From the NCBI RefSeq assembly GCF_901765095.1, contig NC_044044.1, positions 26,760,132 to 26,824,131 on the forward strand: a stretch of DNA of 64,000 nucleotides, given 5' to 3'. Both the position numbers and the translations under genes were made by a program. Source of the stretch: Microcaecilia unicolor. Its lineage: Eukaryota. Position 1 is the stretch's first letter. Every line of letters begins with the position of its first letter. The notes beneath the pieces are model-generated. The model was not told the DNA's origin and made no database searches. It saw nothing but the letters and a program-made list of their open reading frames with translations. Below are positions 1 through 56,457 of this stretch, in pieces.

Positions 1-1499
1 CCACTGTTTCAGGTTGGTTGGTTTATTGATTGATTGATTGATAGTATTTGATATATCCCCCTTCTGGGTAAGGACAAATCATAGAAGTTAACAAAGTAAG
101 GTTTGTAAAAATAATCAGCAATGAAGTGTTGACATTGTAAGCAGTAACTATGCCATATTTTGTATTGTTGTTTGAATATTTTTACTGCTGTAATTGTCTA
201 TTGCTTACGTTTGATTTATGCTTACTGTATATACTGCCTTGAGTTCATTCTTTCAAAAACAAAGAAAAATAAAATAAACCCAAATAGATCGTTTAAAATA
301 AAACAGCACACATATAACCAAGTGAGGGGAACCACATCCCTTAGGCCAGGCAGTGATGGTACTGACTGCTCTAAACCCCCGGAAATGCATGAATGGAAAA
401 GTTCCTTTTTTTTTACTGAGCTTTTTAGAATAACAACATATGTGTTGTAGGTTTGGAAGGGCAGGTTTCCTATGTATGTGTTAAGTGCATTTTTTCCAGG
501 GTTTTCAGTTAACACCGTACAGTGCCTGACTGTGGAGGAAATTTTTGTTGCTTGTATCGAGGTGAACCCTAATCCTTGATTTGCCACCTGACCCCATGTT
601 ATAAGGAACAGGTTAATCGGGCCTGGTTTCACTCTAATGCAGCAGTTCCCAATCTTTTTGTGACTGTGACCCCCATGATTGCAGTCAAATGAAATTGTGT
701 AACCCCCGCTGATCTGCCAAATTACCCAGTGCTAGGACAGAGACTTTTTGGCCAGTCCTGGTTTTAAAGCTAAATCCCAAAGCAGTGTGGGATTTGTAGT
801 CTTTGAGTTTTCCCATTGAAATCAATGCTGCAGATCCCGTAATGCACTATGATGATTTGTAATTCTATTTTCTATGTAAGCCGCATTGAACCTGCTATGT
901 GTGGGAAAGCGCGGGGTACAAATGTAATTAATAATAATAATGGCAGAAATCCAGGACCTAAAAATCTCCTTCCTGGAACTAAGGAACTTGGAAGCTCTGG
1001 GTGCAGAATAACGATGCACCTGTGGAGAGCCCACCCGGGTCCCGATTCACATTTTGGAAGCGCTGTCCTATTGCATGCAGGGACTTGTAGTTCTGATTGT
1101 CCCATTTAGTATCCCAAGAAAACCAATGCTACAAATCCAGACATGCACTGTAGTAAAACCAGGACTGGAGCACCCTGTCCTAATGACCCGGAGGTGGCAA
1201 GCCTAAGCGCTGTATGCTGTTTTTGGAAAGGATGCTCCTCGGTAAGGCTCTATCCACTGCCAAAATAAAACAAGACACAGAAGCGTATTCAATATTTACT
1301 TGACGGAGGATGTGATGGGGAGTAAAAAAAACCACACTGCAGAGCTGTTGGGTGGGGGGTACTGTACGGCTCCAGAAAAAGGAGGACACGTTAATCCAGT
1401 CCGGGCTTTGCTTCCATTGAACGCAGTGGAAGTAAAACCCAGACTGGCTCAATCTGTCCTCCTTTTTCTGGAGCCATAGGGTAACCCTAACTGTAGGGC

Positions 1500-2060
1500 A
1501 GGAATGAGGTACATAGGCAGAGCTGTTCAGGGAGTTTCAGTACTGGAACAGCAGGAGGTGAAGCAAGGCAGGAGTGAGGTGCATTGGTGGCAGGAGGGGG
1601 TTTCAGTACTGGCATTTATAGGGAGTGCTATGGCACAAGATAAGGTGCATTTGGTAGAGCTGTGTGGGGCCCTCGATACTAGAAAAGAAGGGAGAACGCA
1701 GGGCATGAAAGAGGTGCATTGGCAGAACTATGTGGAGGTTTCAGTACTGGAACAGCAGGGGGTGCTGCAGGGCATGAAAGAGGTGCATTGGCTGAACTAT
1801 GTGGAGGTTTCAGTACTGGAACAGCAGGGGGTGCTGCAGGGCATGAAAGAGGTGCATTGGCTGAACTATGTGGAGGTTTCAGTACTAGAACAACAGGGGG
1901 TGCTGCAGGGCAGGAAAGAGGTGCATTGGCAGAATTATGTGGGGACTTCAGTACTGGAACAGCAGGAAATACACAAGATGGAAATGAGATGCACAGGTCT
2001 CTCAGTACTGGAATAGCAGGTGGTGCTGCAGGGCAGGAATGAGGTGCATGGGCAGCGCTG
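1500..2060. repeat. Minisatellite, roughly 59-60 bp unit (ggcatgaaagaggtgcattggctgaactatgtggaggtttcagtactggaacagcagggggtgctgca), about 9 copies, just 3' of the KLHL33 stop
   Basis: Direct periodicity visible in the sequence at 1620-2040; the overlapping ORFs 1504-2016 and 1719-2042 are repeat artefacts. Confidence 0.85.
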
Positions 2061-2072
2061 TGTTGAGACTCC

Positions 2073-2607
2073 TCATGTCTCAGGTGTTCTTTCTCTCAGG
2101 TGTGAAGGCAGAGAGAGCACGCAGGCCTTCATATCAGTGTACGCCTTCGGCATGGTGCCCAGATTAACCCAGCGGTCGCTCTTGGGGTTGTAGCAGTGCA
2201 CAAGGTGTGTGTCCTTGTAGGTTTCATAAGAGTAGCCCCCAAGAACATACAGTTCCCCTAGAAAGGTGACAGAGGCAGCCACCACATGCGTGTGGGTCAG
2301 GGGAGCGATATCCGTCCATGAGTCCTCGGCTGGGCTGTACACTTCGCAGGCATACAAGTCCATGTAACCCCGTTCCCCGTGGCTCAGGCCCCCAGCCACA
2401 TACAGACGTTCCCCTAGAGCTTCCATCACATGGCCCCCCCGGACGTGGGTCATGGGGGAAAGATGGGTAGAGCCAGCCGCAGGGTCGTAGTGGAAGAGAT
2501 CACGGAGTATGTGGTAAATGCCAGTGCAGCCTCCAGAGACATAGATCTTACCACCGCTGACCGCCGCAGCATGCCCACAGAGGGGGAGAGGCAAGGGGTG
2601 CACGAAC
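2073..2607 (-). CDS. KLHL33: KLHL33 terminal coding exon: Kelch repeats 3-6 and stop (FVHPLPLPLCGHAAAVSGGKIYVSGG...SHLRERTPET*)
   Basis: Acceptor ttttcag|GTTCGTG (plus 2608-2610). ORF 2073-2633 includes the stop codon. Repeated GG / Y-V-x-GG Kelch motifs. Confidence 0.85.
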
Positions 2608-5600
2608 CTGAAAAGGAGAGAGAAGAGGAACACTCAGTCTCTCAACACAGTCCCTGAGGTTTCTACTCCCTCTGTCCCCTCTCTCTTACTTCCAAGAGTT
2701 CTTTGCCGGGTCGTAGCACTCGACTGTATCCAGGCACTGAGTGTTGCTGTTGTCTGGGTTCCCCCCCAGGACATACAGAAGCCCCCCCAAGCTCACGGCC
2801 TGAAAGTAGTTGTGCCTCTCTTGCATATCTGCCAGCCTCTCCCACGTATCCTGCAGTGGGTCGTACCTGTGGAAGAGAGGTCATTCATTAGAATCTGCTC
2901 GTATGGCGGGTTCAATGTGGCTTACATATTGCTAAAAAGGCGGTTACAAAATTTAGATTTGTAGAAATCTAACACATAATACAGAAGTACAATGATAGCT
3001 TAGGTTGATATATTAGCGTATTGTGAGAGAGGTTAATATTATTCTTTTCCATTTCTGAACTTTTCGTGATGTATGGTGGTGTACGATTAGGCAGATCCAG
3101 GGGGGAAAGACTTCTTGAAAAGATGTTACATAGTAACATAGTAGATGACGGCAGAAAAAGACCTGCACGGTCCATCCAGTCTGCCCAACAAGATAAACTC
3201 ATATGTGCTACTTTTTCTGTATACCCTACTTTGATTTGTACCTGTGCTCTTCAGGGCACAGACCGTATAAGTCTGCCCAGCACTATCCCCGCCTCCCGCC
3301 ACCGGCTCTGCCTACTGCTGTAATGTAAGTAAGTCACTGTTTGATGTGTGTTCATTAGCTACAATTAAATATTTCTTTAGCAAAGGTAGCAACCGTTTTT
3401 ATTTTTTCTGTCCTCTTTTTTTTGTCTCCGCAAATATGGTAACCCTAGTTGGGGGGGGAAACACAGGTGGAAGATTAATAAACCTGAAAAGAGACCTAAG
3501 CATGAGCGAAAAAGAATGGGCCTGTTTTCTGAAGTAGGTTTCTCTAAGGGAATGCATTAGTGACTGATTGAGTAGGCCTAAAAGTCTAGGGAAGTGTAGA
3601 AATGAGTGAGGGAGTAGGCCTGAAAGTCTGGAAGTAGGTCTCTCTAAGGGAGTGCAGGGGTGTCTGAGGAAGAGTAGGCCTGAAAGTCTGGAAGTAGGTC
3701 TCTCTAAGGGAGTGCAGGGGTGTCTGAGGAAGAGTAGGCCTGAAAGTCTGGAAGTAGGTCTCTCTAAGAGAGAGTAGGGGTGTCTGAGGAAGAGTAGGCC
3801 TGAAAGTCTGGAAGTAGGTCTCTCTAAGGAAGAGTAGGCCTGAAAGTCTGGAAGTAGGTCTCTCTAAGGGAGTGCAGGAGTGTCTGAGGAAGAGTAGGCC
3901 TGAAAGTCTGGAAGTAGGTCTCTCTAAGGAAGAGTAGGCCTGAAAGTCTGGAAGTAGGTCTCTCTAAGGGAGTGCAGGGGTGTCTGAGGAACAGTAGGCC
4001 TGAAAGTCTGGAAGTAGGTCTCTCTAAGGGAGTGCAGGGGTGTCTGAGGAAGAGTAGGCCTGAAAGTCTGGGAGTAGGCCTCTGTTTTGCAAAATTCCAA
4101 TGACCAAATGTCTGGACCCACTTAGGGGCTAATGCAGAAAGTCCAGTGGTAGAGCTGCACAAGGATGTCTAAATATGTGGCTTAGTTCTACTGCAAGCTT
4201 CATACCATGACATGCAAATGCTATGCACAGAAAGTTTTCAGCTAGTTGGGGGTGCTGGACACACGTGCACAAAAGATTCATGATATTCAAGGCTCTTTGT
4301 ACACATGTCCAAACAAAAATCATACGTGAAAGCACACATCGGCGGCAGTTCTTATATGCCTAAATATGAGCCTTGCAAAAATTACTCTGCATTGCCACGG
4401 AATACTCAATGGCCTCATTAGCATTCATAGAGTTTATCCCTTGGCAATTGCGTGGTTGTTAGGCCCATGGTAGCTTTCTGCATCAGCCACTTAGGGAGGT
4501 GTGAAGGTTTGGGCATTTTATGCCATAGTGATATAAGCATATTAAACACCAAAAGAGACCTCACAGGACCTCACCTCACCACACTCTTCAGCACATCTTC
4601 CTTCCCATAGAAATGGTTCCCACCAAAGACGTATAGTATGTTGTCAAGTACAGCCACAGCATGACGGAAGCGTGGCATGTCCGGGAGGGTGCTCAGGGCC
4701 TTCCACTCAATGTGTTTGACCAAGCCAATACCGCTAATGAACCGGTGGGCGAACCATAAGTCCTGACTGGGCACGCGACTGGATAGGTTCCTGGTGAGGC
4801 TATCTCCTCCCACGATGACCAACACATGGCTCGGCAAGCGAATCCTGCAGGGCAGCTGGCTCAGAACAGACGGACCCTTGGGTACGCTCAACAGGGAAGC
4901 CTCAAGGACCTTGTAACACTTCTCGGAAGGCGCCATCAGATCAGCAGCAATGACCTGCCTGAGTTCTCGGTTAGTCATGAGTGGGAAGCGGACACACTTC
5001 ATGACTTTGGCAGCCTGGGAAAGTCGGGCCTCCCTGTCCTCATCAACCCAGCATAGAACAGCTTGGAAGACCTCAAATTCCATGGTGGTATAGAGACCAT
5101 CTTGGCTTAGGAGGGCCACCAGCTGGTCCATCTTGAGATCTTGGAACTTGGGCACCTGTGCCACCTCCTTGAAGTTCCTAAGGATGAAGTCCTCAGTCTC
5201 CTGCCTCAGCTCGGGCAGATCGAAGGCCTCAGCCAGAGCCAGGACATCCAAACTGTGTTCTGACTCCATATTCTCTCTGAAAAACCGGTAGCAGAGCTGC
5301 AGGATGCCAGACATCTGGTAGGGTAGGGCTGCCTCAGTGACTTCAAAAACATTGTCCCAGCCAAGGAGAAGAGAACCAGAGTAGATGAAGGAGATAAACA
5401 GGGATAAGTCTGCTGAAGAGAAGGTGCTGAGGGACACCATGTCTTGATGGGCCTCCTTCATACCACTGGTAAACATTCCACGGAAGAAGTCGCTGCCTGC
5501 AGCCAGGATCACTCGGTGTACTGTAACAAGAGCAAAGGACAGAGATTAACGAGTGGGTTTCAAGAACCAGCCATCATGACTGGCTGTGACAGTAATCATG

Positions 5601-6554
5601 AAAATTGCATTAATGCAAGACCTTATACAAAGTAATACATTGTGCAGCCACCTCTGGGGTGGAAAAGTTGGCCAACATTGCCTTCCAAGGGGAATACCAG
5701 GACGGAGAGGACTGGAAATTGTTTTTGAGGGCTTTGAAAGCAGTGTGAAAACAAGGCTGTGGTGGGAGGATTGGGGGGGGCATGGTGAAAAATATTTTAC
5801 AGACGTTGAGAGGCGGAGAAGTTAAGAACAAGCCTGAAAAAAATGAAGAATTGCTATTTTTTCAGAAATAGACATTTGCAGTCCCGTGATCACTGTAGGA
5901 CAGCTTACGTCCTGAGCTCCTCCTGCATGTACTTCAGAGGAATCTTCCCGACCTACCTTTCAGGGATATCCCATCTGCCTGTAGCTCCAAATCCCATCCA
6001 ATCCCATGTCTTTGCAGCTCCTGGATGCCCCTCAAGTTCTGAAGCTTCTCTTCGGATGCCAGCACCTCCTTGTGGTCTTGTAGTGCAGGATTAAGGAATT
6101 GTTTGCATAGGGCAGCCACCCTGGGTGCCCCTAGAGCTTCTGACACCCGAAGAACCTCCATCGCTGAATCTTTGCTGACATCACAGTGGCCCTCGTAGGC
6201 AAAGTCCAGGAGGGCTTCCAAGCCACAGCAGGTGGCCTTCCCCTCCAGATCCACCATATTGCGCTGCCCCTGCTCCAGGATCTCGGCAAAGAAAGTGCTT
6301 ACAGCGGCCAGAGGGAGACAGTGAGTCTGGTAGAGTCTCCCTTCCAACGCCAGGCATATGTCCACAAGGAGACCCTGCTCCCTCAGCTGGCACAGGGAAC
6401 AGAAAAAATCATCCACGTAGTCCAAGTTCTGGAGCTCCTGGAGATCTACAGAAGACTCCTTCTCCTGTTCAAGTGTCCCAGCATCCATCTTGCCACATAA
6501 ATCCCTGGATCTGGTGGAAGAAGGGTCTCCCTGGGAACCCTCCATATAAGACAT
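2073..6554 (-). CDS. KLHL33: Gene span of a Kelch-like family member 33 orthologue (BTB/BACK plus 6 Kelch repeats); 4 coding exons 5957-6554, 4575-5520, 2690-2866, 2073-2607; 751-aa model
   Basis: Long minus-strand ORFs encode BTB, BACK and Kelch-repeat motifs (GG doublets, W, Y/F spacing). Canonical GT/AG junctions join them in frame, and the total CDS of 2256 nt is a multiple of three. KLHL33 lies next to OSGEP/APEX1 in human chr14q11.2. Confidence 0.75.
2690..2866 (-). CDS. KLHL33: KLHL33 exon: Kelch repeat (RYDPLQDTWERLADMQERHNYFQAVSLGGLLYVLGGNPDNSNTQCLDTVECYDPAKNSWK)
   Basis: Acceptor ccacag|GTACGAC (plus 2867-2872) and donor TGGAA|gtaagag (plus 2683-2689). 177 nt; the phases join exon 2 (AG+G=Arg) and exon 4 (AA+G=Lys). 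Confidence 0.85.
3105..3300 (+). mobile_element. Copy of a high-copy interspersed element with the core catagtaacatagtagatgacggcagaaaaagacc...gtccatccagtctgcccaacaag; related copies at 12780-12960(-), 13270-13400(-), 19690-19850(+), 20800-20910(-), 42590-42720(-) and 42900-43080(-)
   Basis: Multiple near-identical segments across the window in both orientations. Confidence 0.7.
3540..4085. repeat. Minisatellite, 60-bp unit (agtaggcctgaaagtctggaagtaggtctctctaagggagtgcaggggtgtctgaggaag), about 9 copies, in the KLHL33 intron
   Basis: Regular 60-bp periodicity; the minus-strand ORFs 3824-4162 are repeat artefacts. Confidence 0.85.
4575..5520 (-). CDS. KLHL33: KLHL33 exon: partial BTB, BACK and first Kelch repeat (HRVILAAGSDFFRGMF...NILYVFGGNHFYGKEDVLKSVV)
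   Basis: ORF 4571-5512 continues upstream to the acceptor ttgttacag at 5521-5523. The donor is GTGGTGAG|gtgaggtcc, and the exon length of 946 nt is consistent with the flanking phases. BACK-domain and Kelch signature residues are present. Confidence 0.85.
5957..6554 (-). CDS. KLHL33: KLHL33 candidate first coding exon encoding a complete BTB domain (MSYMEGSQ...ADGISLK, 199 codons plus 1 nt)
   Basis: ORF 5934-6554 carries a BTB consensus (LVDICLALEGRLYQTHCLPLAAVSTFFAEIL...GLEALLDFAYEGH...AALCKQFL). The donor AAAG|GTAGGT at 5957 is phase 1 and matches the phase-1 acceptor ttgttacag|TACACC of the next exon, giving ...ISLK-V-HRVILAAG. An upstream acceptor-like ttatcttccag precedes the ATG region, so a 5'UTR exon is possible. 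An alternative donor GCT|GTAAGC inside the ORF is out of phase. Confidence 0.5.
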
Positions 6555-6819
6555 CTTTCCAGGAAAGATTCCAAGCTCTTGGAAACAGCTGGAAGATAAA
6601 AAGCATTAATGAGGCTCAGATTTCAATACAAAGGTACAGGAACCTACAAATCTCTCTGAAAACAAGTATTAGACTTCAGGTTTACTCAGTGCTAGAGGTG
6701 ATAGGCTTTGTATCCCTGTGTCCATCCCCTGAGCCCTCAAGTCCTAGAGGTGATAGGTTCTGTGTCCCTGTGTCCATCCCCTGAGCTAGAGGTGACAGGC
6801 TCTGTATCCCTATATAAGT

Positions 6820-7700
6820 ACATAAGTATTGCCACACTGGGACAGACCAAAGGTCCATCAAACCCAGCAGTTTCCCAACAGTGGCCAATCCAGGTCACAA
6901 ATACCTGGCAAGATCATAGAAAAGCTCAATACATTTTATGATGCTTATCCTAGAAATAAGCAGTGGATTTTCCCAAGTCCATCCTAATAATGGCTTATGA
7001 CCAGAGGTGTAGCTAGGTGGGGTGCAGCTGCTCCCCCAAATGGATCTTGACTAAAATGGTGCCTATGTGGATCAGCCCTCCAGCTTCACACTGATGCCTT
7101 TTTTAACAAAAGGTCTGCTCCCCCTGACATCAAAACCTGGCTACGCTTCTGCTTATGACTCTTCTTTTAGGAAATGCTCCATACCTTTTTTAAACCCTGC
7201 TAAGCTAACTGCTTTTACCACATTCTCTGGCAACGAATTCCAGAGTTTTATTTCCGATCTGAGGAAGAAGGGCAACCTTCGAAAGCTAATCAAGAAATGT
7301 ATTAAGTTATGTCCAATAAAAAAGGTATCATCTTATTTTCTTTTCCATGTTTTATTTTGTTTGATTTCTATTGATAACCTTAAGAGTGGACTAACACGGC
7401 TACCACACTCCTCTACTTGTTGAGTGAAGAAATACTTGCTCTGATTTGTTTTAAATTTACTACTTTGTAGCTTCTTTGCATGCCCCCTAGTCCTAGTATT
7501 TTTGGAAAGAGTAAACAAACGATTCACATCTACCCGTTCCACTCCACTCATTATTTTATAGACCTCTATCATATCTCCCCTCAGCTGTCTCTTCTCCAAG
7601 CTGAAGAGCCCTAGCCGCTTCAGCCTTTCCTCATAGGGAAGTCGTCCCATCCCCTGAGTCTTCAAGATAAAGGAGAAGGCAATGCCCCTCTCTCCGGTCC
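6820..7700 (-). mobile_element. CR1-like LINE 3' fragment (encodes the RT C-terminal tail [37 protein letters not shown]...RLFTLSKNTRTRGHAKKLQSSKFKTN)
   Basis: The minus-strand ORF 7333-7665 matches the conserved ORF2 C-terminus of vertebrate CR1-family LINEs; homologous copies lie at 10240-10850 and 37840-38400. Confidence 0.7.
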
Positions 7701-10239: not shown

Positions 10240-10870
10240 AACTCGACTCGACACAGCAAAGATATAGTGGAATTGGAAAAGGTGCAGCGAAGGGCGACTA
10301 AAATGACAGCGGGGATGGGACGACTTCCCTATGAAGAAAGACTAAGGAGGCTAGGGCTTTTCAGCTTGGAGAAGAGACGGCTGAGGGGAGACATGATAGA
10401 GGTATATAAATAATGAGTGGAGTGGAACAGGTGGATGTGAAGCGTCTGTTCACGCTTTCCAAAAATACTAGGACTAGGGGGCATGCGATGAAACTACAGT
10501 GTAGTAAATTTAAAACAAATCGGAGAAAATGTTTCTTCACCCAACGCATAATTAAACTCTGGAATTCGTTGCCGGAGAACGTGGTGAAAGGCGGTTAGCT
10601 TGGCAGAGTTTAAAAAGGGGTTAGACGGTTTCCTAAAGGACAAGTCCATAAACCGCTACTAAATGGACTTGGGAAAAATCCACAATTCCGGAATAACATG
10701 TATAGAATGTTTGTACGTTTGGGAAGCTCGCCAGGTGCCCTTGGCCTGGATTGGCCGCTGTCGTGGACAGGATGCTGGGCTCGATGGACCCTTGGTCTTT
10801 TCCCAGTGTGGCATTACTTATGTACTTATGTACAGCAGCCGTCCATCCAGTCTGCCCAGCAAGGTGTAAC
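10240..10870 (+). mobile_element. CR1-like LINE 3' fragment (plus orientation)
   Basis: Encodes [37 protein letters not shown] and, via ORF 10413-10598, VEQVDVKRLFTLSKNTRTRGHAMKLQCSKFKTNRRKCFFTQRIIKLWNSLPENVVKG; the same family as 6820-7700. Confidence 0.7.
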
Positions 10871-12689: not shown

Positions 12690-13300
12690 GGGGTTGGTGT
12701 TTGGGTGGTGGGGCTAGTTCTGGGCAAGACTTCTAGGTCTGTGTCCTGAAAATGGGGCTGGTTCTGGGCAAGACTTCTACGGTCTGTGTCCTGAAAATGG
12801 CAGATACAAATCAAGGTAAGGTATACACAAGAAGTAGCACATATGACTTTATCTTGTTGGGCAGACTAGATGGACCGTGCAGGTCTTTTTCTGCCGTCAT
12901 CTACTACGTTACTATGTTATATTGTATTGGCAGTACTTTGTCCGGTGGTGCGGAGGGCTACCCTGATCCTTAAACTTTTAGATGGGAGGCGGGGCTGGTG
13001 TTTGGGTGGTGGGGCTAGTTCTGGGCAAGACCTCTGCGGTCTGTGTCCTGAAAATGGGGCTAGTTCCGGGCAAGACTTCTGCGGTCTGTGTCCTGAAAAT
13101 GGGGCTAGTTCTGGGCAAGACCTCTGCGGTCTGTGTCCTGAAAATGGGGCTAGTTCCGGGCAAGACTTCTGCGGTCTGTGTCCTGAAAATGGGGCTAGTT
13201 CCGGGCAAGACTTCTGCGGTCTGTGTCCTGAAAATGGGGCTAGTTCCGGGCAAGACTTCTACGGTCTGTGTCCTGAAAATGGCAGATACAAATCAAGGTA
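12690..13300. repeat. 45-bp tandem array (aatggggctagttccgggcaagacttctgcggtctgtgtcctgaa), about 9 copies, expanded from the flank of a high-copy interspersed element
   Basis: Direct repeats visible at 12700-13290. The unit is homologous to the terminal region of the gtagatgacggcag element copies at 12780-12960 and 42890-42960. Confidence 0.8.
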
Positions 13301-13779
13301 AGGTATACACAAGAAGTAGCACATATGACTTTATCTTGTTGGGCAGACTAGATGGACCGTGCAGGTCTTTTTTTTCTGCCGTCATCTACTATGTTACTAT
13401 GAGGCATATTTTCAAAGCACTTTGGGAGGCTAAGTTCCATAGGTTTCTATGGAACTTTGGGAGGCTAAGTGCTTTGAAAATGAGCCTCCAAGTCTTCCTC
13501 ACAATGAAATTGGCCTAACATTGTTTAGCATTGTAGTCGAATATTATCTCTGTAGAATAGTGACCCCCCCTCCCCCCCCCCCCCCCCCCAACCACTGATC
13601 TCTCCAGTGAACTTCCTTTAGCTGTTCTCTGACATATGGGTCTCAGATGCTGTAGAAGGGGGACACTTACACTCCCTTCCTTCCTAATCCACCACAAAAT
13701 TTAGGAGTCACCCCGTATGTGATTGGCAATCAGACGCAGTCTGGATCTAAGACTGCGGGTTTAGAAGCAGCTTCACTGA

Positions 13780-19239: not shown

Positions 19240-20510
19240 ACCCCAAGTCTAACAAATCAACTCGTACAACTCCTTAGGCTCAAACAAATAATATTTTTTT
19301 AAAATTTTCTCTTAATGCAATTTTAAAACAATTCTACACAAAAAAGTTGTGTATATCAAAATGTGCTCAGTCCGTGCCTGGTGCAACCATTATATCCCCA
19401 GGGAGAATATGTGGTCATCATGTCACAGTTGGAAAAGCATCACTGCACATTCAATGTTCCGCCTCCTTAAATGTATGTACATACACCCAGACCAGATATA
19501 AGGCCTTCACCATATATGAGATAGTATAATAAATTTAAATTAGCACATTTTTGACAAAACATTGCCCAACCTTCTTAGACCCTACTAGCTCACTCCTGCA
19601 CTAAATATATGAAGGTACATGCATACTCACTGATATAACTATCCCCACAAACAAAACAACCAAATCTGTCCAAAAAAATGCACAGCAAATATTATTATAA
19701 TCACTTCCCATAACATAGTAACATAGTAGATGACGGCAGAAAAAGACCGGCATGGTCCATCCAGTCTGCCCAACAAGGTAAACTCACATGTGCAACTTTT
19801 TGTGTATACCTTACCTTGATTTGTACCTGTCCTTTTCAGGGCACAGACCGTGTAAGTCTGCCCAGCACTATCCCTGTCTCCCAACCACCAGTCCCGCCTC
19901 CCACCACCGGCTCTGGCACAGACCGTATAAGTCTGCCCAGCACTATCCCCGCCTCCCACCACCGGCTCTGGCACAGACCGTATAAGTCTGCCCAACACTA
20001 TCCCCGCCTCCCACCACCGGCTCTGCCACCCAATCTCGGCTAAGCTCCTTAGGATCCATTCCTTCTGAGCAGGATTCCTTTATGCTTAAGGATATCTCGT
20101 GCTCTTGTTGGTGCTCAAAACATACTCATACATTCATCCATGCTTTCTCTCAATTTCAGTACTTTGTTCCCTTTAACTCTGGCCGAGTTTCACACATCTT
20201 CATCAGAAAGGGAAACTATAAACAAAGAAATTCAGTAGGGAGATAGACCCTATCAAATCAATTGTTAACCTCTTTAAAGGGTACTTACTCATAACAAAAC
20301 CATTATAATCCTATAAGGGTCAACTGTGACATGATGGCCACATATTCTCCCTGGGGATATAATGGTTGCACCAGGCACGGACTGAGCACATTTTGATATA
20401 CAAAAATTTTTTGTGTAGAATTGTTTTAAAATTGCATTAAGAGAAAATTTAAAAAAAAATTATTTGTGTGAGCCTAAGGAGTTGTACGAGTTGATCTCTC
20501 ACTTCTTGCC
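19240..20510. mobile_element. Element flanked by roughly 200-bp terminal inverted repeats (19241-19437 and 20321-20507), possible DNA-transposon or foldback remnant
   Basis: The right arm is the reverse complement of the left arm (..aaatcaactcgtacaactccttaggctcaaacaaataat...gtgtatatcaaaatgtgctcagtccgtgcctggtgcaaccattatatccccagggagaatatgtggtcatcatgtcacagttg). The internal region carries an unrelated interspersed repeat. Confidence 0.65.
19840..20035. repeat. Roughly 60-bp tandem triplication (ggcacagaccgtataagtctgcccagcactatccccgcctcccaccaccggctct) inside an interspersed element copy
   Basis: Three near-identical direct copies at 19850-20030. Confidence 0.75.
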
Positions 20511-24300: not shown

Positions 24301-24402
24301 ATATCAAGTCCCATTTCCCTTTCCCCCTCATAACCTGTCTCTTCTCCATGTTTTTTTTCAGTTACTGTGAAGGAGGCAAGACCTCCCCCCCCCCCTCCCC
24401 CT

Positions 24403-41743
<17,341 letters not shown>

Positions 41744-43822: not shown

Positions 43823-44337
43823 TCACATGGCCATGTACAGCGTGATGGGACAGTGGTCGCTCCCCATGGCCTTGGAGCGAATTTTGTTGTCACAGAGCTT
43901 AGGAAGCAAGGCCTCAGAAAGCAGGAAGTAATCGAGCCTCCAGCCCACATTCTTTCCCCGAGCGTTCATCATGTAAGTCCAGAACGTGTAGGCGTAGGGG
44001 ACATCCGGGTACAGGTGGCGGAAGGTGTCAACGAACCCCTCCCCCAGCAGGGTGCCGAAACCCTCCCGCTCCTGCGGGGTGAATCCAGCTGTCTTCTTAT
44101 TCGTCTTGGGATTCTTCAGGTCGATCTCCTCGTGGGCCACATTGAGGTCTCCACAGAGGATAAGGGGCTTCCGCCCATCTAGACCCTTCAGGTAGGCCCG
44201 GAACGCTACATCCCACTTCTGACGATAGTCCAGCCGGACCAGGCCACGACTGGAGTTGGGCACGTAGGCCGCCACCAGGAAGTAGTCCTTGAATTCTGCT
44301 GTAATGACTCGCCCTTCTTTATCATGTTCCTCCACAC
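43823..44337 (-). CDS. APEX1: APEX1 terminal coding exon with stop ([16 protein letters not shown]...[13 protein letters not shown])
   Basis: Acceptor tctacag|GTGTGGAGG; ORF 43823-44368 holds the catalytic-core motifs. Confidence 0.92.
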
Positions 44338-46800
44338 CTGTAGAACAAGGGAGAAAAAAAAATAGCAAGCAGAAGATGAAAGGGCCTCATCCACAATGCA
44401 AACATTACCCCCCCCCCCCTTTCCTTACCAGCTCAACTCACAATTAAAAAGCTCACTACAGGATGGGTATCACAGGCTCTTTTCTCCTCAGACATATGAA
44501 CCCTGCTCCCTACGTCATAATCAACAGAAGGGGTGGGATCCTGAGTTAAGGGAGCAAGGGTGAAACCTGCTTCCTTCTTAAGGGATACATTTTCAGTCAT
44601 AGAAGAGAACAGACTTTCCAGCCCTTTTTGTTATTCCACATGTTCACCCCTAGCATTTTACTTCTCCAATTTCTACATGTGCAACTGTGGTTCCCCCCCC
44701 CACCACCACCACCACCACCACCACCAAGGAAGGTACGACTGAGTTAGGAATGTCTCACCAATGGCACACGTGTGGTCATCCTTTGTAGGTGCACCATGCT
44801 GCATGTGGGAAGTATGAGAGTCTGCATCTGCCTGTGAGCTATCAGAGTATGATATGGTCCAACCCCTGATCACGCGTGAAGGAGCGAAACATGGACCGTG
44901 AAATTGGCTCTTGTGATTTGGTGATTGTGCATCGCAGGTTCAAGAGTGTAATTTGAACAGTTTTCTTGAATTACTCATACATCCTGGAAGTGGGGGAATG
45001 TCGTGATATGACCTTGGAACGTTGGACTGATCATTTGTTTAGCAGCGGCTGAACTATTCAAGGTTACTACAGCTATGAACGTTATTGGAACTTGGATTCA
45101 GTGACGTGATTAATGGAGGTTACAAGATGGCCCAATAGTATTTATTTTGGGATTGTATGGTGTATTCTAAGCTGTATAGTGTGAGTGTGTGATGATTGTG
45201 AAGAATGTTGTGTTTGACAAGTTGGTACCATAGCATTCCCTGTTACTGGTTTTAGAGGTTTTTCTATATTGTTTCAAAGCATGCATAGTTGTTAATATAT
45301 CGTACCAATGCCGTAGGAGACATTGAGTGGCGAGTCTTTGCAAAGCATGGCCACGCCGCTGTAGCCCTCCTTGTCATCCGAGCAGGCCCAGTACTTGTTG
45401 GGGTACTCCGCCATATCCTTGATCTCGCTAGGCAGGGCCTTCTCAGCACATTTTGTCTCCTGTAGGCACAGGATGTCTGGATCCTCCTGCCGCACCCACT
45501 GAAGGAAAAATAGAGGAAATATTTATTCACAGCAAGAAATAGGGACCAGGCAATTGATGCCTCACAGACAACAGCACAGGAGCTCCCTGTGGTCTCTCAA
45601 GTGCCCCACGGGGATGGGAGGAGGGTGGAAATTTAAAAGGCAACAGAGAAGCATTAATTCACCCATGGCTTCATTATCCCTACAAAGGAGCAGGTGCAAA
45701 AGGAAGCAATTAGAAAAGCTGGTACCCCTCCCCCATCTAAGAGGCAAACAGCAACACCATGAATCTGGTACCCTGGGAGCAAGTCTCGGGGCTGGATTGC
45801 AGGGGAGGGGGGGGGATGAGAGGCATGCAGTCGCTTGTACAGAAGGGGCAGGGTGGGGGTGGGCGGTTAATACTCACATCCAGGCCCTTCTTCTTCACCC
45901 AGGCTCGCAGCCCATCCACGTTCCAGGAGGTGATCTTGAGGTTGTACTTCTTCCCTGCAGAAGAGGTCAGCTTTTCAGGGGGATCCTCGTATGTGGGGGG
46001 CGCCTCAGGCTCCTTCGCGGCTTTGGCCCCCCCTCCCTTCTTGCTCTTTTTCGCTACCTGTTCTGAAGAGAAGCAATAGGGAAAGAGAAATAAAAACACA
46101 CTACTGTTCAAATGTCTTCCCTGGTTATCTTCTCGCTGCTCCTTGCCTCATAAGGCTGTCATCAGGGAGACTGAACGTGACCCATCTCTGCTTATCAGGA
46201 AGCCACTGTGCAACTAGTAAATCCTGGCCCCGATTCTCAAGGTACCCTACAAATATGCATGAGATAGATTTACATACATTGCATGCAAATCTCTCATACA
46301 TATTCGTTAAGAGTATCCCAAACCTCTGACCTGTCTGCAGCATTGAGGGCTGTCATTGAGTACCACTGCTCAAGGTGTTACCATGACTGTAACACAGAAT
46401 TTATTGATTTTGTAAATTTCTAGCCCACAACAAACAAGTAAATAAACAGACTGCTATGCATCAGAGAACAAAAGTGCTGGAATTAAGGCACAGGGAAGCA
46501 GGCAGTTTGTTCCATAAAAGAGGCCCTTCCTTTAGAACACTGGTTCTCAGCCCAATTCATGGGACACATCCAGCCAGTCTGTTTTCAGGATATCCACAAT
46601 GAACATGCTGCATGAGACAGATCTGCATACATTCGATGATGTACATGCAAATCTATCCCATACATAATCATTGTGGCCAGAGCAGTTTGAAATTCACTGC
46701 TCTGGAAGGGTGATGAGGCTCAATTACCATTTTCATCCTGCTCCTGGCACTCAACATTCACAGTCTCCTCCTCAAGCGCCTTCTTCCCACGTTTTGGCAT
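43823..46800 (-). CDS. APEX1: Gene span of AP endonuclease 1 (APEX1/APE1/Ref-1), 4 coding exons, 321-aa model
   Basis: Exon peptides match APE1: MPKRGKK start, ...[35 protein letters not shown]...[12 protein letters not shown], the C-terminal catalytic core ...[34 protein letters not shown]...[22 protein letters not shown]...SDHCPITLY. All junctions are GT-AG and the CDS of 966 nt is a multiple of three. Confidence 0.92.
45306..45498 (-). CDS. APEX1: APEX1 exon ([64 protein letters not shown])
   Basis: Acceptor ttccttcag|TGGGTG and donor GGCATTG|gtacga. Confidence 0.9.
45878..46062 (-). CDS. APEX1: APEX1 exon ([62 protein letters not shown])
   Basis: Acceptor tctcttcag|AACAGG and donor CTGGAT|gtgagt. 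Confidence 0.9.
46728..46800 (-). CDS. APEX1: APEX1 first coding exon ([24 protein letters not shown], phase-1 end)
   Basis: ATG at plus 46798-46800 (reverse complement) and donor AAAATG|gtaattgag. The upstream acceptor ttccttttccttcag near 46862 suggests a non-coding exon 1 in the CpG island. Confidence 0.85.

Positions 46801-47912: not shown

Positions 47913-56457
<8,545 letters not shown>

What the first reader, a model, noticed from the sequence alone, without database searches (positions are those of the whole stretch)
5957..6554. KLHL33 carries an extra upstream exon encoding a complete BTB domain, giving a tandem BTB / partial-BTB architecture
The exon at 4575-5520 already starts within a BTB-like segment (HRVILAAGSDFFRGMFTSGMKE...) and continues through BACK and Kelch repeats. 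Mammalian KLHL33 is thought to start near this point with a truncated BTB. About 440 bp upstream on the same strand, a 199-codon ORF encodes a full BTB domain plus the start of a BACK or 3-box (FCSLCQLREQGLLVDICLALEGRLYQTHCLPLAAVSTFFAEIL...GLEALLDFAYEGH...VAALCKQFL). Its phase-1 donor (AAAG|GTAGGT) splices exactly in frame to the phase-1 acceptor of the next exon. The result is a 751-aa protein with duplicated BTB sequence. This could be the ancestral full-length form, an exon duplication, or an alternative first exon.
Basis: partly seen in the sequence, partly recalled or inferred. Interest (0 to 1): 0.6.

Follow-up and report, generated by a model that had tools for sequence, protein, structure and literature searches.

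The report
KLHL33 first coding exon, already annotated
The upstream exon is real and splices as proposed, but it is the normal first coding exon of KLHL33: the exact 751-aa product is already in RefSeq for this caecilian, and related species have the same two-BTB layout, so the finding is ordinary.

Summary
On the minus strand, an ATG at 6554 opens 199 codons that end at a phase-1 donor (AAAG|GTAGGT, 5957/5956). This joins in frame to the acceptor at 5521/5520, and four GT-AG exons give a 751-aa protein.

The interpretation needs correcting in three ways.

1. The second BTB is not partial. The last 34 codons of the upstream exon encode its first helix and two strands. Pfam therefore finds two full-length BTB domains (aa 56-155 and 178-282), then BACK and Kelch repeats.
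2. The exon is not extra. The 751-aa product is identical to RefSeq XP_030043385.1, kelch-like protein 33 of Microcaecilia unicolor. Annotated KLHL33 of newt, gharial, paddlefish and marsupials has the same layout, as does an amphioxus homologue. Human NM_001365790 is numbered 264 residues ahead of the short isoform.
3. It is not a recent duplication. The two BTBs are only 24% identical.

Novelty: already known at annotation level. Interest is low.

The parts
5957..6554 (-). KLHL33 first coding exon (exon A), aa 1-199 plus the first base of codon 200. It encodes a disordered N-terminus, BTB1, a linker and the start of BTB2.
   Evidence: ORF and splice sites. Pfam BTB. Exact match of the spliced product to XP_030043385.1.
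6555..6588 (-). Possible 5'-UTR part of the same exon, lying behind a candidate acceptor (ttatcttccAG at 6590-6589). This would imply a further non-coding exon upstream. Inference only.
   Evidence: Sequence read. No transcript data.
6090..6443 (-). BTB1 (aa 38-155): strand beta1, helix alpha1, B1-B3, A1-A5. It lacks the phi-x-E Cul3-contact loop.
   Evidence: Pfam, 57 bits. AF2 pLDDT above 90 with these secondary-structure elements. Loop alignment.
6060..6089 (-). Inter-BTB linker PALQDHKEVL (aa 156-165). Low model confidence and poorly conserved.
   Evidence: pLDDT dip. 10-33% identity to orthologues.
5957..6059 (-). N-terminal third of BTB2 (aa 166-199: helix alpha1, strands B1 and B2), encoded at the 3' end of exon A.
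   Evidence: The Pfam BTB match at 178-282 spans the junction. AF2 elements H166-182, E189-193, E196-200.
5521..5956 (-). Intron 1, 436 nt, GTAGGT...TTACAG, phase 1. Its position is conserved in other vertebrates.
   Evidence: Exon-A-type ORFs of turtle, rabbit and others read into the intron with Gly at the same point. Gavialis isoform X1 has a 37-aa insertion exactly here. Logan contigs L002/L003.
4575..5520 (-). Exon B: the rest of BTB2 (aa 200-282; aa 201-282 at 5273-5518, including SGMKE), BACK (aa 290-390, 4949-5251) and the first Kelch blade.
2690..2866 (-). Exon C (Kelch repeat).
2073..2607 (-). Exon D (Kelch repeats and the TGA stop at 2075-2073).

Best explanation
The segment 5957-6554 (minus strand) is the canonical first coding exon of the KLHL33 gene of the caecilian Microcaecilia unicolor. 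It splices through a conserved phase-1 intron to exon B. The product has the layout BTB1 - 10-residue linker - BTB2 - BACK - Kelch propeller. The intron cuts inside strand B2 of BTB2, so exon A is needed for BTB2 to be a complete domain.

Shown here: the gene structure, the two full-length BTB matches, identity with the RefSeq protein, and conservation of the layout and of the intron position.

Inferred mechanism, which I rate at about 0.5:
- The two BTB domains pair with each other inside one chain through the usual BTB dimer interface.
- Strand beta1 of BTB1 would lie against strand beta5 of BTB2.
- KLHL33 would then act as a single-chain pseudo-dimeric substrate adaptor for Cullin-3.
- Only BTB2, which carries the conserved phi-x-E motif SGM[KR]E and sits next to the 3-box/BACK, would bind Cul3.
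- BTB1 would cap the dimer interface, giving one Cul3 site and one Kelch propeller per BTB dimer instead of two of each.
For: Gene model:
- four GT-AG exons, 751 aa.
- Pfam BTB twice (aa 56-155 at 57 bits when scored alone; aa 178-282 at profile positions 2-108 of 110, across the junction). Also BTB_KLHL33 PF21536 at 106.6 bits against a cutoff of 27, BACK at 83.5 bits, and 5 Kelch_1 stretches.
- exact sequence identity with XP_030043385.1 / A0A6P7WYL0, 'kelch-like protein 33 [Microcaecilia unicolor]'.

Conservation:
- exon A alone retrieves full-length RefSeq KLHL33 of Lissotriton (743 aa), Gavialis (756), Polyodon (784) and Sarcophilus and other marsupials (775), plus a Branchiostoma protein (713). 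Each has two BTB stretches and all align collinearly.
- BTB1 is 30-44% identical across these proteins and BTB2 is 30-56%.
- Intron position.
- Human long isoform numbered 264 residues ahead: (PMC12119447).
- Synteny with APEX1 and OSGEP in the window.

Mechanism:
- AF2 model of aa 36-395, pLDDT 90.4, pTM 0.84.
- Foldseek TM 0.84, normalised to 4u2m_C.
- (PMC7271949): that tethered heterodimer uses the same interface as homodimers.
- SGM[KR]E is conserved in BTB2 of the ten vertebrate sequences (GSLKE in the amphioxus homologue). The equivalent BTB1 loop varies in length and sequence and has no such motif.
Against: - No transcript or junction reads for this species were available. An exact-product look-up found no transcript contig. 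The RefSeq XP record is itself a computational model.
- The pseudo-dimer rests on one AF2 prediction from a 7-sequence alignment. AF2 may favour the BTB dimer geometry it has learned.
- I had no access to model coordinates, so I could not measure interface contacts.
- The full-length model has lower overall confidence (pLDDT 76.3, pTM 0.53), although both BTBs stay above 90.
- Absence of phi-x-E does not prove that BTB1 cannot bind Cul3.
- Orthology of the amphioxus protein to KLHL33 was not tested by phylogeny. NCBI names it 'kelch-like protein 9'.
Confidence: 0.85

Rival explanations
1. Exon A is an alternative first exon. A shorter isoform, starting inside or just before exon B with a truncated BTB like the human 533-aa form, would be the main product.
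For: Human RefSeq lists both a short (NM_001109997) and a long (NM_001365790) transcript. Pfam family PF21536 models only the last 63 residues of BTB2, starting at the conserved Met215. UniRef holds truncated entries such as a 512-aa Vombatus and a 465-aa Crocodylus protein.
Against: Exon B lacks helix alpha1 and strand B1 and has only the last residue of strand B2 of BTB2, so a product that starts there could not form a complete BTB. Met215 is the Met of the FRAMF-type helix and is conserved for structural reasons. Exon A is conserved from paddlefish to marsupials, with the same intron position. An additional minor short isoform cannot be excluded.
Confidence: 0.1
2. The two BTB domains do not pair within the chain. 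Each engages a BTB of another molecule, so the tandem drives chains or higher-order oligomers of the adaptor rather than a closed pseudo-dimer.
For: BTB domains are known to form hetero- and homo-oligomers (PMC7271949). PDB hits to BTB1 include filament- or polymer-forming BTBs such as ZBTB8A, ZBTB5 and ZBTB9. The pseudo-dimer is only a prediction.
Confidence: 0.3
3. Exon A arose by a recent duplication of the BTB-coding sequence in this lineage.
For: Two BTB sequences lie about 440 bp apart on the same strand.
Against: BTB1 and BTB2 share only 24% identity. BTB1 is orthologous to the first BTB of newt, gharial, paddlefish and marsupial KLHL33. An amphioxus protein has the same layout. The closest solved relatives of BTB1 are mostly zinc-finger and BACH-type BTB domains, not BTB2.
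Confidence: 0.02
4. 5934-6554 belongs to a separate gene or a pseudogene, and the RefSeq model wrongly fuses it with KLHL33.
For: The ORF can be read on through the donor to a stop at 5934, as a stand-alone 206-aa ORF.
Against: The last 34 codons before the donor are the missing N-terminal third of BTB2. Only the spliced product gives a continuous full-length Pfam match and a confident fold. There are no frameshifts or stops. The junction is conserved in at least eight taxa or contigs.
Confidence: 0.02

Closest known systems
Annotated KLHL33 proteins: XP_030043385.1 Microcaecilia unicolor; XP_078497344.1 Lissotriton; XP_019368767.1 Gavialis; XP_041092749.1 Polyodon; XP_003755846.3 Sarcophilus; human NM_001365790 product
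   Same: Identical to the first of these. It aligns collinearly with the other four proteins retrieved here (47-58% identity overall for the non-mammals, 41-43% for marsupials). The layout is the same, BTB-BTB-BACK-Kelch, and the intron position inside BTB2 is the same. The human product was not retrieved; only its +264-residue numbering offset is known.
   Different: Nothing of substance. The N-terminal disordered tail varies in length: marsupials have about 50 more residues and the newt about 30 fewer.
Human short KLHL33 isoform (NM_001109997) and Pfam PF21536 BTB_KLHL33
   Same: Corresponds to the window protein from about Met215 onward: the C-terminal 63 residues of BTB2, then BACK and Kelch.
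   Different: It lacks BTB1 and the first third of BTB2. The offset of 264 residues relative to NM_001365790 comes. That the short form is an incomplete or minor product is my inference.
Tethered 'forced' POZ heterodimers Miz1-BCL6 and Miz1-NAC1 (PDB 4u2m, 4u2n)
   Different: They are engineered constructs of transcription-factor BTBs, with no BACK or Kelch and no Cul3 role. KLHL33 would be a natural version. Its arrangement is predicted, not solved.
Canonical KLHL / KBTBD Cul3 adaptors (KLHL3, KLHL11, KLHL22, KEAP1, KBTBD2)
   Same: BTB2-BACK-Kelch matches them in fold and in the phi-x-E motif.
   Different: They have a single BTB that homodimerises, giving two Cul3 sites and two propellers per dimer. 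KLHL33 has an extra N-terminal BTB that is predicted to occupy that interface.
Other two-BTB proteins: RhoBTB1-3 and LZTR1
   Same: Two BTB domains in one chain, and a link to Cul3 ligases (PMC4931677; PMC8154269).
   Different: RhoBTB has a GTPase domain and a bipartite first BTB that is the Cul3 binder. LZTR1 has an N-terminal Kelch domain followed by two BTB-BACK units. KLHL33 has BTB-BTB-BACK-Kelch with a single BACK, and the Cul3 motif sits on the second BTB.

Membership tests
KLHL (BTB-BACK-Kelch) family, KLHL33 orthologue | BTB/POZ domain (PF00651) | tested here: met
   129.5 bits in two stretches, at aa 56-155 and 178-282.
KLHL (BTB-BACK-Kelch) family, KLHL33 orthologue | BACK domain (PF07707) after the BTB | tested here: met
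   aa 290-390, 83.5 bits, profile positions 2-102 of 103.
KLHL (BTB-BACK-Kelch) family, KLHL33 orthologue | C-terminal propeller of 5-6 Kelch repeats | tested here: met
   Kelch_1 at 167.7 bits in 5 stretches; all-beta region at aa 432-738 in the AF2 model. I did not count the blades exactly.
KLHL (BTB-BACK-Kelch) family, KLHL33 orthologue | KLHL33-specific signature PF21536 above its gathering score | tested here: met
   106.6 bits against a cutoff of 27, profile positions 1-63 of 63.
KLHL (BTB-BACK-Kelch) family, KLHL33 orthologue | Sequence identity with a protein annotated as KLHL33 | tested here: met
   the 751-aa model is exactly XP_030043385.1 / A0A6P7WYL0.
KLHL (BTB-BACK-Kelch) family, KLHL33 orthologue | Conserved neighbourhood (OSGEP and APEX1 beside KLHL33, as at human 14q11.2; the human order is from my own knowledge) | tested here: met
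   APEX1 exons at 43823-46111 on the minus strand (E 4e-94). OSGEP start at 47913 on the plus strand.
KLHL (BTB-BACK-Kelch) family, KLHL33 orthologue | Binds Cullin-3 through the BTB phi-x-E loop plus the 3-box | not testable with these tools
   The motif SGMKE is present in BTB2 and conserved as SGM[KR]E in the other nine vertebrate sequences aligned (GSLKE in the amphioxus homologue). Binding itself needs an experiment.
Single-chain (tethered) BTB dimer | Two BTB folds in one polypeptide joined by a short linker | tested here: met
   10-residue linker at aa 156-165.
Single-chain (tethered) BTB dimer | The two domains pack through the canonical BTB dimer interface | tested here: inconclusive
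Single-chain (tethered) BTB dimer | Monomeric in solution, with one Cul3 bound per chain | not testable with these tools
   Needs SEC-MALS or native MS and a binding assay.
RhoBTB family | N-terminal Rho GTPase domain and a bipartite first BTB | tested here: not met
   no GTPase match, and BTB1 is continuous over profile positions 3-107.
LZTR1-type | N-terminal Kelch domain followed by two BTB-BACK units | tested here: not met
   the order here is BTB-BTB-BACK-Kelch, with a single BACK.

The most novel reading that the evidence does not exclude
KLHL33 may be a natural single-chain BTB pseudo-dimer that predates vertebrates. A degenerate N-terminal BTB, with no phi-x-E loop, would permanently occupy the dimer interface of the Cul3-binding BTB. 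The result would be an asymmetric, monovalent Cul3 adaptor with one Cul3 site and one Kelch propeller, unlike the symmetric homodimers formed by other KLHL proteins. I found no paper in the searchable literature that describes this. One paper calls LZTR1 unique among BTB-Kelch proteins for having two BTBs.
Probability: 0.45. Interest if true: 0.4.

Novelty: already known. Interest (0 to 1): 0.15.

Why it matters
For genome annotation it changes nothing, because the exon and its splice are already in RefSeq and UniProt for this species and its relatives.

The useful outcome is a correction. KLHL33 should not be treated as a KLHL with a truncated BTB. The full-length protein has two complete BTB domains, and the 533-aa human form and Pfam PF21536 describe only its C-terminal part.

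If the predicted intramolecular BTB pairing is real, KLHL33 would be a built-in example of an asymmetric, monovalent Cul3 adaptor. That would interest people who study CRL3 architecture, since KLHL33 is a muscle-enriched gene of unknown function (PMC7672584).

Tried and rejected
- The word-indexed protein search with aa 1-289 returned only three Logan ORFs, all equivalent to exon B. It said nothing about exon A directly, but contigs L002/L003 did show the end of an upstream exon and a roughly 100-nt intron at the same position.
- The exact-product look-up for contigs encoding the 751-aa protein found nothing, so I have no transcript-level evidence.
- The AlphaFold-database fold libraries (afdb50, afdb_sample) were not available. 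I could not list other natural proteins with the same two-BTB packing.
- The 2013 KLHL family review (PMC3658946) does not mention KLHL33 in its main text. The KLHL phylogeny paper only says that KLHL33 fits no clade.
- The bacterial promoter/terminator scan of 5400-7400 is irrelevant for a vertebrate gene and showed nothing.
- Alternative starts at Met4 and Met23 are not on record as annotated products.
- Readings rejected: recent exon duplication (24% identity), a separate gene or pseudogene (BTB2 is split by the intron), and a BACK or 3-box at the end of exon A (it is BTB1 helix A5, the linker and the start of BTB2).

Full report
**Observation.** I read the region on the minus strand.
- An ATG at 6554 follows an in-frame stop 19 codons upstream. 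It opens 199 codons that end at CTG AAA G|GTAGGT, with the last exon base at 5957.
- The ORF can be read on to a stop at 5934, which gives the 206-aa ORF.
- After 436 nt the intron ends with a polypyrimidine tract and ...cttgttacag|TACACC at 5521/5520.
- Both exon borders are phase 1, and the junction codon G+TA encodes Val200.
- Adding exon B (5520-4575), exon C (2866-2690) and exon D (2607-2073, TGA stop) gives a 2256-nt CDS and a 751-aa protein with no frame break. All introns are GT-AG.

**What the exon encodes.**
- Pfam finds two BTB matches in the spliced protein. Scored alone, aa 1-164 gives 57.1 bits (E 2.4e-15) over profile positions 3-107 of 110.
- The second match covers aa 178-282 and profile positions 2-108 of 110. 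It runs continuously across the exon junction at aa 199/200.
- After these come PF21536 BTB_KLHL33 (aa 215-277, 106.6 bits), BACK (aa 290-390) and five Kelch_1 stretches.
- The downstream BTB is therefore complete, not partial. The last 34 codons of exon A (ASEEKLQNLRGIQELQRHGIGWDLELQADGISLK) provide its helix alpha1 and strands B1 and B2.
- In the AF2 models the junction falls inside strand B2 (E196-200).
A 10-residue linker of low confidence follows it.

**Is it already known?**
- An exact-sequence look-up shows that the 751-aa model is identical to RefSeq XP_030043385.1 / UniProt A0A6P7WYL0, 'kelch-like protein 33 [Microcaecilia unicolor]'. The window is therefore from this caecilian, and the proposed splice is already the annotated product.
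- I ran a full HMMER search with the exon-A ORF alone. It retrieved full-length proteins that their sources name kelch-like protein 33: Lissotriton helveticus (743 aa), Gavialis gangeticus (756 and 793 aa), Polyodon spathula (784 aa), and Sarcophilus, Vombatus, Trichosurus, Phascolarctos and Sminthopsis (775-809 aa).
- The same search retrieved a 713-aa Branchiostoma floridae protein.
- Each of the five full-length proteins I scanned (Lissotriton, Gavialis X2, Polyodon, Sarcophilus, Branchiostoma) has two Pfam BTB stretches plus BACK and Kelch. All eleven sequences, including the window protein, align collinearly through BTB1, linker and BTB2.
- Per-region identity to the window protein is 30-44% for BTB1, 30-56% for BTB2 and 37-62% for the Kelch region.
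- For human, an exome paper lists one variant as p.G278R in NM_001109997 and p.G542R in NM_001365790 (PMC12119447). The long RefSeq isoform is therefore numbered 264 residues ahead of the 533-aa form, which I take to be an N-terminal extension.
- The idea that mammalian KLHL33 starts at a truncated BTB reflects the short isoform, on which the 63-residue Pfam model PF21536 seems to be based. That last link is my inference.

**Intron position.**
- Exon-A-type ORFs from other genomes read through the donor with a Gly (G|GT) at exactly the same point. They include Chelydra KAG6920859.1, rabbit A0A5F9DNZ3 and several unnamed Logan ORFs.
- Gavialis isoform X1 differs from X2 by a 37-aa insertion precisely at this junction.
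- Two Logan contigs from a distant species show the end of the upstream exon (…LCRQ…NVGCDVILEAIGGSL), a roughly 100-nt intron, and then AHRVILAAGSDYF.

**Age of the duplication.**
- BTB1 and BTB2 are 24% identical (E 9e-8), so this is not a recent exon duplication.
- The best PDB sequence hits for BTB1 are mostly zinc-finger and BACH-type BTBs, plus KLHL26.
- The amphioxus protein suggests that the tandem predates vertebrates, but I did not test orthology.

**Orthology and context.**
- The window also carries APEX1 exons at 43823-46111 on the minus strand (E 4e-94 to APE1 structures).
- Head-to-head with APEX1 is the first coding exon of OSGEP, starting at 47913 on the plus strand (E 2e-16).
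- From my own knowledge, these are the neighbours of KLHL33 at human 14q11.2.

**Mechanism (inferred).**
- By family, KLHL proteins are substrate adaptors of Cullin-3 ligases that homodimerise through the BTB.
- In KLHL33, the Cul3-contact loop (phi-x-E) is conserved as SGM[KR]E in BTB2 of the ten vertebrate sequences (GSLKE in the amphioxus homologue). The equivalent BTB1 loop varies in length and sequence and has no such motif.
- An AF2 model of aa 36-395, built on a 7-sequence alignment, is confident (pLDDT 90.4, pTM 0.84).
- Foldseek gives TM 0.84 normalised to 4u2m_C.
- That engineered heterodimer uses the same interface as natural homodimers (PMC7271949).
- The DSSP strings show a beta1 strand only in BTB1 (aa 39-42) and a beta5 strand only in BTB2 (aa 249-252). 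This fits a single beta1-beta5 sheet between the two domains.
- I therefore propose that BTB1 caps BTB2 within the chain. That would give a pseudo-dimer with one Cul3 site and one propeller.
- This rests on a prediction. I could not inspect coordinates, and the rival of intermolecular pairing or oligomers remains open.

**Literature.**
- I found no paper describing two BTBs in KLHL33.
- One paper states that LZTR1 is unique among BTB-Kelch proteins in having two BTB domains (PMC8154269).
- RhoBTB proteins are the other well-known two-BTB Cul3 adaptors, and in them the first BTB binds Cul3 (PMC4931677).
- KLHL33 is reported as preferentially expressed in skeletal muscle (PMC7672584).

**Verdict.**
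- At annotation level this is already known, so interest is low.
- The only point that goes beyond the databases is the untested hypothesis of a single-chain BTB pseudo-dimer.

Noticed in passing
window 43823-46111 (-) and 47913-48028 (+): APEX1 exons on the minus strand (E 4e-94 to APE1 structures) lie head-to-head with the first coding exon of OSGEP ([17 protein letters not shown]..., E 2e-16 to human OSGEP). The two are about 1.8 kb apart, so they probably share a bidirectional promoter. From my own knowledge, these are the neighbours of KLHL33 at human 14q11.2.
   Followed up: partly
window 24367-25932 (+): A 521-codon open frame rich in Ser, Thr, Pro and Cys, with imperfect 33-nt (11-aa) repeats at 24884-25182. 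Its last ~45 residues match Pfam AA_permease_N (PF08403, 37 bits). It looks like a long first coding exon of an SLC12-type cation-chloride cotransporter with an expanded repetitive N-terminus. The C-terminal part has no PDB sequence match.
   Followed up: partly
window 1489-1967, 3612-4083, 6688-6786: Minisatellite arrays around KLHL33. A 69-nt unit (about 4 copies, 91% matches) lies just 3' of the stop codon. Units of 20/40/60/100 nt lie in intron 2. A 52-nt unit in two copies lies about 130 nt upstream of exon A. They produce spurious repetitive ORFs.
   Followed up: no
window 7333-7665 (-), 10413-10598 (+): ORFs with the motif ...[43 protein letters not shown]... They look like 3' fragments of a reverse-transcriptase-bearing interspersed repeat (CR1/LINE-like, from my own knowledge). 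Copies occur on both strands upstream of KLHL33.
   Followed up: no
P0154 (Gavialis gangeticus XP_019368766.1), alignment A1 columns 312-348: The predicted isoform X1 carries a 37-aa insertion (GELGRGALQV...) exactly at the exon A/B junction. It looks like a retained intron or an alternative donor in the gene prediction. It incidentally marks the conserved intron position.
   Followed up: partly
window 12870-13518, 19639-19998, 40182-40517, 55071-55772: More tandem-repeat arrays give long repetitive ORFs on both strands, for example ...GASSGQDFCGLCPEN... and ...[10 protein letters not shown].... These are probably non-coding minisatellites.
   Followed up: no
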